DNA from: a virus
Taxonomy: Duplodnaviria > Heunggongvirae > Uroviricota > Caudoviricetes
IMG/VR virus record: IMGVR_UViG_2897352509_000015
Length of the DNA: 13,586 nucleotides
Strand: one strand, 5' to 3'
Made by a program: the position numbers. The number at the start of each line of letters is the position of its first letter. Within the stretch, counting starts at the first letter, position 1. This document shows positions 12,001-13,586 of the stretch, piece after piece.

Positions 12001-13586
12001 ACCTTTTTCTTTGATAATCACATTACAGCGATAGCGTGGTGTGCCATCGGATTTTAGTCGTTTCTCTATGTTATAGTACGCCATTACACGACCTCGTTAT
12101 TTCGGGTTCCCATAAAACGTGGGAACCTGTGCGGGAACCTAACGCGAGAAAAATAGCCTGAAATGTTCAAAAATGCACGATAATCATGAAGCACAAAAAA
12201 TTAATCAAACCAGCGTGATGCCTGAAAAAACTGGTGTTTACTGGAATTCTCGGTTTAGCGTTGCACCAATGCTCGACTGGACGGACAGACATTGCCGCTA
12301 TTTCTTGCGTCTGCTTTCCCGCAATACGCTGCTGTATACCGAAATGGTGACCACAGGGGCGATTATTCACGGTAAAGGTGATTACCTGGCGTACAGTGAA
12401 GAAGAACATCCGGTAGCGTTGCAACTCGGCGGTAGCGATCCGGCGGCGCTGGCGCAGTGTGCGAAGCTGGCAGAAGCGCGCGGATATGATGAGATCAACC
12501 TGAATGTCGGCTGCCCGTCTGACCGGGTGCAGAACGGCATGTTTGGTGCGTGTCTGATGGGTAATGCGCAGCTGGTTGCCGACTGCGTGAAAGCGATGCG
12601 CGATGTGGTGTCGATTCCGGTGACGGTGAAAACGCGTATTGGCATCGATGATCAGGACAGCTATGAATTTCTCTGCAATTTCATCAACACCGTTTCCGGC
12701 AAAGGCGAGTGTGAGATGTTCATCATCCACGCACGTAAAGCCTGGCTTTCGGGGTTAAGCCCGAAAGAAAACCGTGAAATCCCGCCGCTCGATTATCCGC
12801 GTGTGTATCAACTGAAGCGTGACTTTCCGCATCTGACGATGTCGATTAACGGTGGCATCAAGTCGCTGGAAGAAGCTAAAGCGCATTTGCAACATATGGA
12901 TGGCGTGATGGTCGGGCGCGAGGCGTATCAGAATCCGGGTATTCTGGCGGCGGTAGACCGGGAGATCTTTGGTTCCTCGTATACCGATGCCGATCCGGTG
13001 GCGGTAGTGCGTGCCATGTATCCGTACATTGAGCGTGAACTCAGCCAGGGGACGTATCTCGGGCATATTACCCGGCATATGCTGGGCTTGTTCCAGGGTA
13101 TTCCTGGCGCGCGGCAGTGGCGGCGTTATTTAAGTGAAAATGCCCATAAAGCGGGTGCAGACATTAATGTGCTGGAACACGCGCTCAAACTGGTGGCGGA
13201 TAAGCGTTAACTTTTCACCAAAAAGTAGTCAAATTCACCACGCCCTGCGCAAATTCGCGGGGCGTTTTGCTGTTAAATCAATAGATTATTTTTGGCATGA
13301 TTCTTGTAATGCCAGCAAGAGATTTCATATTTGGGAGAGCATCATGCTGGAACTACTTTTTGTGATTGGCTTTTTTGTCATGCTGATGATCACCGGCGTT
13401 TCGTTGCTGGGCATTATCGCCGCGCTGGTTGTGGCGACGGCCATTATGTTCCTCGGCGGTATGCTGGCATTGATGATTAAGTTGCTGCCGTGGTTACTCC
13501 TGGCGATTACGGTGGTGTGGGTTATTAAGGCGATTAAAGCACCAAAAGTGCCTAAATATCAGCGTTATGACCGCTGGCGTTACTAA

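What the first reader, a model, noticed from the sequence alone, without database searches (positions are those of the whole stretch)
12104..12140. GGGAACC-type short repeats near both ends of the element
Three copies (one inverted) lie between int and dusA, and a related pair (gtgggagcc, ttgggaaccc) lies at 1463-1483 just inside attL. Such placement and spacing are typical of integrase arm-type or accessory-factor binding sites. They would also overlap whatever promoter now drives the restored dusA.
Basis: inference. Interest (0 to 1): 0.4.

Follow-up and report, generated by a model that had tools for sequence, protein, structure and literature searches.

The report
Integrase arm sites of dusA prophage
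The short GGGAACC repeats at both ends of this E. coli prophage are real and are most likely the outer ("arm") docking sites that the phage integrase uses to insert into and leave the host dusA gene; this is an ordinary kind of element, but it had not been described for this integrase family.

Summary
GGGAACC occurs 6 times in the window against 1.3 expected. Three copies (one inverted, two direct at a 12-bp period) lie at 12105-12139, between the int start codon and the element-borne 5' end of dusA. GGGAGCC plus GGGAACC lie at 1465-1482, just inside attL.

In free phage mEp460 the two ends are joined into one attP. The repeats then sit about 115-145 bp on one side of the 27-bp core and 43-61 bp on the other.

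Related attPs from eight other phages keep this layout, but each lineage has its own 8-mer (for example GGGGTGCT, GGTGTACT, AGGGGTAC). Of 82 relatives, 71 carry such a tandem pair next to int, at a fixed distance from the core.

The motif tracks two residues (23 and 30) in a predicted three-strand-plus-helix domain at the integrase N-terminus.

A separate array of four 10-bp A/T-rich units resembles the PrtN "P box". It is the better candidate for the excision factor RdfN. An IHF-like site lies between the core and the far-arm pair.

Best reading (about 0.8): these are arm-type integrase binding sites in a lambda-like attP, possibly also repressing int. No binding experiment exists. Verdict: new member of a known kind, moderate interest.

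The parts
12104..12111 (-). Arm-type site P-a: the inverted copy (GGGAACCC on the minus strand), 20 bp from the int start codon.
   Evidence: The inverted copy is present in the Enterobacterales and several other lineages but absent in the Vibrionaceae subgroup.
12121..12128 (+). Arm-type site P-b: first direct copy, GGGAACCT.
   Evidence: It is one of the tandem pair at a 12-bp period that is found in 71 of 82 relatives.
12133..12140 (+). Arm-type site P-c: second direct copy, GGGAACCT.
   Evidence: It is invariant in the five closest lineages. None of the three sites carries a substitution among the closely related haplotypes of 73 E. coli-type arms.
1465..1472 (+). Arm-type site P'1 on the far arm: GGGAGCCT, 43 bp beyond the core end.
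   Evidence: The position (+41 to +43) is conserved among the other attPs.
1476..1483 (+). Arm-type site P'2 on the far arm: GGGAACCC, 54 bp beyond the core end.
   Evidence: The position (+51 to +54) is conserved in most of the other attPs.
12250..12276 (+). attR core: 27 bp identical to attL, inside the dusA 5' coding region. This is the crossover region.
1395..1421 (+). attL core: the end of the displaced native dusA 5' fragment (1318-1421).
10987..12084 (-). int: a dusA-type tyrosine integrase of 365 aa. The N-terminal residues 1-58 are predicted to form a three-strand-plus-helix domain.
12145..12186 (-). Four A/T-rich units phased at 10 bp (on the int-sense strand: ATTATCGTGC ATTTTTGAAC ATTTCAGGCT ATTTTTCTCG). 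This is a P-box-like array and the predicted RdfN binding region. It overlaps the annotated dusA start codon at 12173.
   Evidence: P-box definition from PMC4905994. The assignment to RdfN is an inference.
1442..1454 (+). IHF-like site AAACAAATAGTTA (one mismatch to WATCARNNNNTTR), lying between the core and the far-arm pair.
   Evidence: A match sits at exactly +20 from the core end in 5 of 9 attPs.
2520..2801 (-). rdfN: the PrtN-family (PF11112) recombination directionality factor gene.
   Evidence: Its function in a related element was shown by Durand 2021, PMC8409611.
12173..13210 (+). dusA, whose first ~100 nt (12173-12276) are supplied by the element.

Best explanation
The five GGGRRCC copies are arm-type binding sites for the N-terminal domain of the prophage's own tyrosine integrase.

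Layout in the free phage. attP reads: int start, then 3 sites (one inverted, two direct at a 12-bp period), then four 10-bp A/T-rich units, then the surrogate dusA 5' end, then the 27-bp core, then an IHF-like site, then 2 direct sites.

Proposed mechanism (inferred). Each integrase monomer would hold an arm site with its N-terminal three-strand-plus-helix domain and a core half-site with its C-terminal domains. DNA bends made by IHF, and during excision by the PrtN-family factor RdfN, would bring arms and core together, as in the lambda intasome.

Effect of integration. In this window integration has split the sites: three are in attR (12104-12140) and two are in attL (1465-1483).

Possible second role (inferred). 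The three attR sites start 20 bp upstream of the int ATG, so bound integrase probably also represses int. It could also affect the element-supplied dusA promoter.

Shown versus inferred. Shown here: the existence of the sites, their non-random placement, their fixed geometry relative to the core, and their covariation with the integrase N-terminal domain. Inferred: which protein binds, the bridging mechanism, and the regulatory effects.
For: 1. Clustering is non-random.

2. The two ends of the window are one contiguous attP in phage mEp460, with identical repeats.

3. In nine attPs with both arms available (eight other phages, including lambdoid, P2-like and Vinavirales phages), the 8-mer defined from the int-proximal pair recurs as a same-strand tandem pair about +42 and +53 bp beyond the core. 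That is 13 hits against 0.53 expected. The 8-mer itself differs by lineage: GGGAACCT, GGGGTGCT, GGTGTACT, GGTGTCC, AGGGGTAC, AGGGTGAC, GGGAGACT.

4. Of 82 relatives, 71 have an 8-mer pair with at most 1 mismatch at a period of 11 or 12 within 100 bp of the int ATG, against 5.7% of shuffles; 50 pairs are perfect against 0.4%. The pair-to-core distance is 135-144 bp in 46 of 51 loci, while the distance to the ATG ranges from 15 to 50 bp.

6. Of the 365 integrase columns, the two with the highest mutual information with motif class are residues 30 and 23, in strands 3 and 2. Y30 and G23 occur in 28 of 28 GGGGTGC elements, H30 in 6 of 8 GGTGTAC elements, and R30 and S23 in 2 of 2 GGTGTCC elements.

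7. Among 73 E. coli-type arms, 9 distinct point substitutions all fall outside the three sites (P = 0.019).

8. A different repeat class, four 10-bp units on one arm only, matches the architecture of the PrtN P box. This gives RdfN its own candidate sites.

9. An IHF-like consensus sits at exactly +20 from the core end in 5 of 9 attPs.
Against: - There is no binding or mutational experiment for any member of this family. Neither of the two papers on dusA-specific integrases that I read mentions arm sites.
- The isolated N-terminal domain matches no Pfam arm-binding family. The best hint is Arm-DNA-bind_4 at E = 0.19 in a homologue.
- The int N-terminal coding region is physically adjacent to the sites, so covariation could arise from linkage alone.
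- RdfN accompanies this integrase in nearly every element checked and is about as diverged as the integrase. Presence or absence of RdfN therefore cannot exclude it as the binder.
- No clear promoter was found, so the autoregulation step is conjecture.
Confidence: 0.8

Rival explanations
1. The G-rich repeats are binding sites for the PrtN-family recombination directionality factor RdfN, or are shared by RdfN and the integrase, rather than for the integrase N-terminal domain.
For: RdfN (PF11112) is encoded in the window. It was also found in every related phage where I looked for it, apart from one Cox-annotated protein with no Pfam hit. It is needed for excision of a related dusA element (PMC8409611). 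It is diverged between lineages (47-54% identity), so it too could have lineage-specific sites.
Against: The motif is on both arms. To my knowledge, directionality factors characterised so far bind one arm only. PrtN's known target is four tandem 10-11-nt ATTG repeats, and an array with exactly that architecture exists separately on the int-proximal arm. The best-covarying residues lie in the integrase N-terminal strands. The integrase has an otherwise unexplained extra N-terminal domain. Farrugia 2015 reports prtN in only 64% of dusA islands.
Confidence: 0.1
2. The int-proximal cluster, especially the inverted pair GGGTTCCC-N9-GGGAACC, is only a transcriptional operator for a dimeric regulator of int and/or dusA, with no role in recombination.
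For: The sites lie 20-55 bp upstream of the int ATG and 34-68 bp upstream of the annotated dusA ATG. The first two copies form an inverted repeat.
Against: The inverted copy is missing in many relatives, whereas the direct pair is nearly universal. The pair is positioned relative to the core, not to the int ATG. The same motif recurs on the far arm at a fixed offset from the core, where there is no int or dusA promoter.
Confidence: 0.06
3. The repeats are a chance or compositional clustering of a G+C-rich heptamer.
For: With one mismatch allowed, the motif is not enriched across the window. Two exact copies elsewhere look like chance.
Against: None of 2000 shuffles placed 3 copies within 40 bp. 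The same architecture with different motifs appears across 71 of 82 relatives and nine two-arm attPs.
Confidence: 0.01

Closest known systems
Phage lambda attP: Int arm-type sites P1, P2, P'1-P'3 with IHF, Xis and Fis sites
   Same: The integrase has three domains. A short repeated motif unrelated to the core lies on both arms, roughly 115-145 bp from the core on one side and 45-60 bp on the other. The far-arm sites are tandem. An IHF-like site lies between the core and the far-arm sites. A directionality-factor array lies on the longer arm. Full-length lambda Int structures align with the model. The lambda geometry is from my own knowledge.
   Different: There is no detectable sequence homology in the N-terminal domain, and no Pfam arm-binding hit. 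The int start, not its end, abuts attP. The core lies inside the 5' end of a protein-coding gene, and the element supplies a replacement for that end. The site count is 3 + 2 and the motif is different. The directionality factor is PrtN-family, not Xis.
KplE1 (CPS-53) IntS/TorI at argW, and by extension P4 Int/Vis: int promoter overlapping arm-type sites (Panis et al. 2010, PMC2951348)
   Same: The int gene starts next to the recombination region, so arm-type sites sit in its upstream region. That paper shows negative autoregulation by the integrase and by the directionality factor, and predicts the same wherever this geometry occurs.
   Different: The KplE1 target is a tRNA gene and the integrase and directionality-factor families differ. 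Here the int promoter is not mapped and no strong sigma-70 match exists, so autoregulation is only inferred.
dusA-associated integrase elements (Farrugia et al. 2015, PMC4482086) and their factor RdfN (Durand et al. 2021, PMC8409611)
   Same: The window's element belongs to this family. int is divergent from dusA, the att repeat lies in the dusA 5' end, the element supplies a new dusA 5' end, and a prtN/rdfN homologue is present.
   Different: Those papers define only the 21-bp core-type repeat and the need for RdfN. Neither describes arm-type sites, the IHF-like site or the P-box-like array (term counts; literature searches).
Pseudomonas PrtN P box (four 10-11-nt repeats, ATTGnn(n)GTnn(n))
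   Same: This applies to the neighbouring A/T-rich array, not to the GGGAACC sites. That array has four tandem 10-bp units each starting ATT (ATTG in marine relatives), next to a PF11112 partner protein.
   Different: The consensus beyond ATT is not matched in the window. The context is recombination, not activation of pyocin genes. Binding is untested.

Membership tests
Arm-type sites of a heterobivalent (lambda-type) tyrosine integrase attP | A short repeated motif, distinct from the core sequence, on both arms of attP | tested here: met
   There are three copies at 12104-12140 and two at 1465-1483. They are contiguous in the mEp460 attP, and the same holds in the other eight two-arm attPs.
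Arm-type sites of a heterobivalent (lambda-type) tyrosine integrase attP | The integrase carries a separate N-terminal DNA-binding domain in addition to the core-binding and catalytic domains | tested here: inconclusive
Arm-type sites of a heterobivalent (lambda-type) tyrosine integrase attP | Site sequence changes together with the integrase N-terminal domain among relatives, while positions stay fixed relative to the core | tested here: met
   More than 10 motif classes were found. Residues 30 and 23 are the top two of 365 columns by mutual information with motif class. The pair-to-core distance is 135-144 bp in 46 of 51 loci. Caveat: tight physical linkage could produce the same covariation.
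Arm-type sites of a heterobivalent (lambda-type) tyrosine integrase attP | A bending-protein (IHF) site between the core and the arm sites | tested here: inconclusive
   WATCARNNNNTTR, with at most 1 mismatch, sits at exactly +20 from the core end in 5 of 9 attPs, including the window at 1442-1454. It is absent in four marine attPs.
Arm-type sites of a heterobivalent (lambda-type) tyrosine integrase attP | Direct binding by the integrase N-terminal domain, and a requirement for the sites in recombination | not testable with these tools
   This needs EMSA or footprinting and att-site mutagenesis.
dusA-associated integrase elements (Farrugia 2015) | A tyrosine integrase gene adjacent to dusA, with the att repeat inside the dusA 5' end and an element-supplied replacement 5' end | tested here: met
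   int is at 10987-12084 on the minus strand and dusA at 12173-13210 on the plus strand. A 27-bp repeat is present at 1395-1421 and 12250-12276, and the displaced native 5' fragment is at 1318-1421.
dusA-associated integrase elements (Farrugia 2015) | A PrtN/RdfN homologue across attP from int | tested here: met
   PF11112 matches at E = 4e-23 for the ORF at 2520-2828 on the minus strand.
Negatively autoregulated int with its promoter inside the att region (KplE1 paradigm) | The int promoter overlaps integrase arm-type sites | tested here: inconclusive
   The geometry fits, with sites 20-55 bp upstream of the ATG. No promoter was found at standard stringency. Only 8-of-12 candidates appear, and these lie further upstream.
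Negatively autoregulated int with its promoter inside the att region (KplE1 paradigm) | The integrase represses its own promoter | not testable with these tools
   This needs reporter fusions with and without the integrase.
PrtN P-box-type array (for the neighbouring A/T-rich units) | Four tandem repeats of 10-11 nt | tested here: met
   AAT occurs at 12152, 12162, 12172 and 12182. Four or more phased units occur in 29 of 71 relatives, against 0.3% of shuffles.
PrtN P-box-type array (for the neighbouring A/T-rich units) | Repeat consensus ATTGnn(n)GTnn(n) | tested here: inconclusive
   The window units share only ATT. Marine relatives have ATTGCCTTGA.

The most novel reading that the evidence does not exclude
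The attR arm may be a shared control region. Under this reading, occupancy of the three arm sites by the integrase, and of the adjacent four-unit array (which overlaps the annotated dusA start codon) by SOS-induced RdfN, sets transcription of both int and the host tRNA-modification gene dusA. The prophage's recombination proteins would then directly tune a host enzyme according to the lysogenic or induced state. A second, related reading is that the many natural pairs of N-terminal domain and arm motif (residues 23 and 30 against motif bases 3-6) form a simple recognition code that could be reprogrammed.
Probability: 0.2. Interest if true: 0.55.

Novelty: new member of a known kind. Interest (0 to 1): 0.4.

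Why it matters
dusA-specific integrases are found in hundreds of Proteobacterial genomes. They move prophages, resistance islands mobilised by IncC plasmids, and, as seen here, lambdoid, P2-like and Vinavirales (double jelly-roll) phages.

Only the core site and the excision factor RdfN have been described for them. A full attP map is needed to build minimal integration vectors, to predict which degraded islands can still excise, and to interpret the expression of int and dusA at the junction. Such a map would have three plus two arm sites, an IHF-like site and a P-box-like array.

The E. coli O157-type remnant in this window still has an intact int ORF, an intact rdfN ORF and all five sites.

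The series of more than ten lineage-specific motifs, each paired with a small N-terminal domain, gives a ready-made natural data set for working out how arm-binding domains read DNA.

None of this is conceptually new: it follows the lambda and KplE1 paradigms.

Tried and rejected
- **Pfam on the integrase** found only the catalytic domain. The isolated N-terminal 70 aa gave nothing, even at E up to 10.
- **Promoter and terminator scan of 11950-12350** found nothing. A relaxed scan gave only 8-of-12 matches. I therefore do not claim a mapped int or dusA promoter.
- **Separating the integrase from RdfN by presence or absence of RdfN** failed, because nearly all checked relatives carry PF11112. 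RdfN divergence was not discriminating either.
- **The IMG/VR scan** returned only near-identical E. coli copies. It was useless for diversity, but I used it for the within-lineage substitution test.
- **My first regular expression for the dusA core** was too strict and wrongly flagged marine loci as non-dusA. Inspection showed that most are dusA, and that a real non-dusA subgroup exists.
- **Chance** was considered and rejected.
- **A pure operator reading** was considered and rejected.

Full report
**What the window is**

The 13.6-kb window is 98.7% identical to a region of E. coli O157:H7 genomes. That region holds a degraded lambdoid prophage inserted in the 5' end of dusA.

- int, a tyrosine recombinase of 365 aa, is at 10987-12084 on the minus strand.
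- dusA is at 12173-13210 on the plus strand.
- A PrtN-family gene (PF11112, E = 4e-23) is at 2520-2828 on the minus strand.
- A 27-bp sequence, tcggtttagcgttgcaccaatgctcga, is identical at 1395-1421 and 12250-12276.

To the left of the attL copy lies the displaced native dusA 5' fragment. To the left of the attR copy lies a diverged, element-borne surrogate 5' end. This is the arrangement described for dusA-associated integrases (Farrugia 2015, PMC4482086).

**The observation**

- 12105-12111 on the minus strand;
- 12121-12127 and 12133-12139 on the plus strand;
- 1476-1482 on the plus strand, with GGGAGCC at 1465-1471.

Six exact copies compare with 1.28 expected, and none of 200 shuffles reached six. 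None of 2000 dinucleotide-preserving shuffles placed three copies within 40 bp. The two remaining copies (7961, 9003) are isolated and lie inside long ORFs. With one mismatch allowed there is no window-wide enrichment. The signal is therefore the clustering at the element ends.

**The two ends form one attP**

Phage mEp460 encodes a 98-100% identical integrase. In its genome the window's two ends are contiguous. The order is:

1. int ATG;
2. 20 bp;
3. GGGTTCCC;
4. 9 bp;
5. GGGAACC, 5 bp, GGGAACC;
6. an A/T-rich stretch;
7. the surrogate dusA 5' end;
8. the core;
9. 43 bp;
10. GGGAGCC, 4 bp, GGGAACC.

The repeats therefore sit about 115-145 bp from the core on one arm and 43-61 bp from it on the other.

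**Comparison with related attPs**

Relatives with 54-69% identical integrases were read in full:
- Yersinia phage YeP1, the phage deposited as Elizabethkingia phage EKP1, and Pseudoalteromonas phage C5a;
- Morganella phage IME1369_02, the Vinavirales (double jelly-roll) Vibrio phage 1F53_PE004, Shewanella phage M16-3, Pseudoalteromonas phage ACA1 and Salinivibrio phage SMHB1.

All show the same architecture with a different motif. Examples:
- YeP1 has AGCACCCC, then GGGGTGCT-4-GGGGTGCT next to int, and GGGGTGCT-att-GGGGTGCT on the far arm.
- EKP1 has GGTACACC, then GGTGTACT-4-GGTGTACT, and GGTGTACT-att-GGTGTACC on the far arm.

For a formal test I defined each motif only from the int-proximal pair. 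I then counted same-strand matches with at most 1 mismatch in the first 110 bp beyond the core. This gave 13 hits against 0.53 expected. Almost all hits fall at +41 to +43 and +51 to +54.

**Survey of 82 relatives**

I fetched 80 genomic loci and analysed them together with the phage loci.
- 71 of 82 have an 8-mer pair with at most 1 mismatch, at a period of 11 or 12, within 100 bp of the int ATG. Only 5.7% of shuffles do. Fifty pairs are perfect, against 0.4% of shuffles.
- The pair lies 135-144 bp from the core in 46 of 51 loci where a dusA core was recognised. Its distance to the int ATG varies from 15 to 50 bp.
- Most of that variation reflects whether the extra inverted copy is present.

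Positioning relative to the core argues for a role in recombination rather than a purely promoter-related role.

**Variation within the E. coli lineage**

Seventy-three E. coli-type arms from IMG/VR fall into 12 haplotypes. Among the ten closely related ones there are nine distinct point substitutions, and none lies inside the three 7-bp sites (P = 0.019). In slightly more distant relatives, positions 4 and 5 of the motif vary as purines, giving GGGRRCC.

**Which protein binds**

The integrase model (mean pLDDT 86.6) has three parts:
- an N-terminal unit with strands at 2-10, 16-26 and 29-38 and a helix at 41-58;
- a helical core-binding domain;
- the catalytic domain.

Modelling the first 68 residues alone gave the same fold at pLDDT 88.

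Full-length lambda Int chains (1z1b, 5j0n) are among the best PDB matches and align over about 370 columns. For the isolated domain the searches are not specific:
- Foldseek and a sequence profile find nothing significant.
- Pfam finds no arm-binding family.

The architecture is therefore lambda-like, but homology of the N-terminal domain is not shown.

Across 56 integrases grouped by motif, the two columns with the highest mutual information with motif class, out of 365, are residues 30 and 23 in strands 3 and 2:
- Y30 and G23 occur in 28 of 28 GGGGTGC elements;
- H30 occurs in 6 of 8 GGTGTAC elements;
- R30 and S23 occur in 2 of 2 GGTGTCC elements;
- R23 occurs in 7 of 8 GGGGCA(C/G) elements.

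This supports the integrase as the binder. However, the coding region for this domain is physically adjacent to the sites, so linkage is a confounder.

**The alternative binder, RdfN**

The PrtN-family factor RdfN is required for excision of a Vibrio dusA element (Durand 2021, PMC8409611). It accompanies this integrase in lambdoid, P2-like and Vinavirales relatives. It is as diverged as the integrase. It therefore cannot be excluded by its distribution.

A second repeat class gives RdfN a better home. Directly core-ward of the arm pair lie four units phased at 10 bp. In the window, AAT occurs at 12152, 12162, 12172 and 12182. On the int-sense strand the units read ATTATCGTGC ATTTTTGAAC ATTTCAGGCT ATTTTTCTCG. 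Marine relatives read ATTGCCTTGA three times.

Four or more phased units occur in 29 of 71 relatives, against 0.3% of shuffles, and I saw no such array on the far arm of the window. The known PrtN target, the P box, is "four repeats of 10-11 nucleotides" with consensus ATTGnn(n)GTnn(n) (PMC4905994).

Assigning this array to RdfN leaves the two-arm G-rich motif for the integrase. That division matches lambda, where the integrase binds both arms and Xis binds one arm (my own knowledge).

**IHF-like site**

A match to WATCARNNNNTTR with at most one mismatch lies at exactly +20 from the core end in five of nine attPs. In the window it is AAACAAATAGTTA at 1442-1454. This resembles lambda's H' site.

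**Regulation (inferred)**

The three attR sites lie 20-55 bp upstream of the int ATG and 34-68 bp upstream of the annotated dusA ATG.

In KplE1, arm-type sites overlapping the intS promoter give negative autoregulation, and that work predicts the same wherever int abuts its att region (Panis 2010, PMC2951348). In a Vibrio relative the int-dusA region contains an active int promoter and an element-supplied dusA promoter.

Here no convincing sigma-70 promoter is predicted, and only 8-of-12 candidates appear.

**Literature and novelty**

Neither of the two family papers mentions arm sites. Searches for dusA together with "arm-type" or "arm" returned nothing relevant.

The finding is therefore a previously undescribed, but entirely conventional, component of a known recombination system: a new member of a known kind. 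Its main added value is the natural covariation series and the complete attP map.

**Verdict**

My confidence that these are integrase arm-type sites is about 0.8. The rivals are RdfN sites (0.1), an operator only (0.06) and chance (0.01). Interest is 0.4.

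Noticed in passing
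window 12145-12186: Four A/T-rich units phased at 10 bp lie between the arm pair and the surrogate dusA coding end. Their architecture matches the PrtN P box, so they are probably the RdfN binding array. Unit 3 overlaps the annotated dusA start codon at 12173. The array is conserved across the family: 29 of 71 relatives have four or more units, against 0.3% of shuffles.
   Followed up: partly
window 1433-1454: An IHF-like consensus, AAACAAATAGTTA (1442-1454), sits at exactly +20 from the core end, as in 5 of 9 related attPs. It overlaps a perfect palindrome, GTTTTTGAAAAAC (1433-1445).
   Followed up: partly
loci L028-L042, L057, L058, L067, L079, L086 (upstream of int, near locus position 10000): A subgroup of relatives from Xenorhabdus, Providencia, Raoultella, Buttiauxella, Enterobacter and Atlantibacter is not inserted next to dusA. 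These elements still keep the GGGGTGCT tandem pair, and often a relic of the surrogate dusA start (AAATGCACGAAAAT). This suggests a change of target with the arm module retained.
   Followed up: partly
L087 (Morganella phage IME1369_02), far arm about 40-60 bp beyond the core: The far-arm pair is mixed, GGGGTGCT-att-GGTGTCCT, whereas the int-proximal arm carries GGTGTCC three times. This may be a trace of recombination between attPs of two specificity classes.
   Followed up: no
window 12173 and 12220: There are two in-frame ATGs for dusA (MHDNHEAQ... and MPEKTG...). Element-borne surrogates across the Enterobacterales conserve ATGCACGAAAAT, which coincides with units 3-4 of the A/T array. That conservation may therefore reflect protein binding rather than, or as well as, coding.
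   Followed up: no
window 12154-12208: Only weak divergent promoter candidates were found (8 of 12 matches each). On the minus strand: TTGATT (12208) and GATTAT (12185). On the plus strand: TAGCCT (12154) and GATAAT (12179). If the minus-strand candidate is real, all three arm sites would lie in the int 5' leader.
   Followed up: partly
phage records L002, L087-L091: The same int-attP-rdfN module is carried by lambdoid siphoviruses, P2-like myoviruses and Vinavirales (double jelly-roll) Vibrio phages. The recombination module is therefore exchanged across unrelated virus groups.
   Followed up: no
window 2520-10925: According to the RefSeq annotation of the O157:H7 counterpart, the prophage is a remnant. 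Several genes are pseudogenes (exonuclease, methyltransferase, tail tip, capsid), and there are three DUF1076 genes at 8513-10516. The int ORF, the rdfN ORF and all att features are nevertheless intact, so the remnant may still be able to excise.
   Followed up: no
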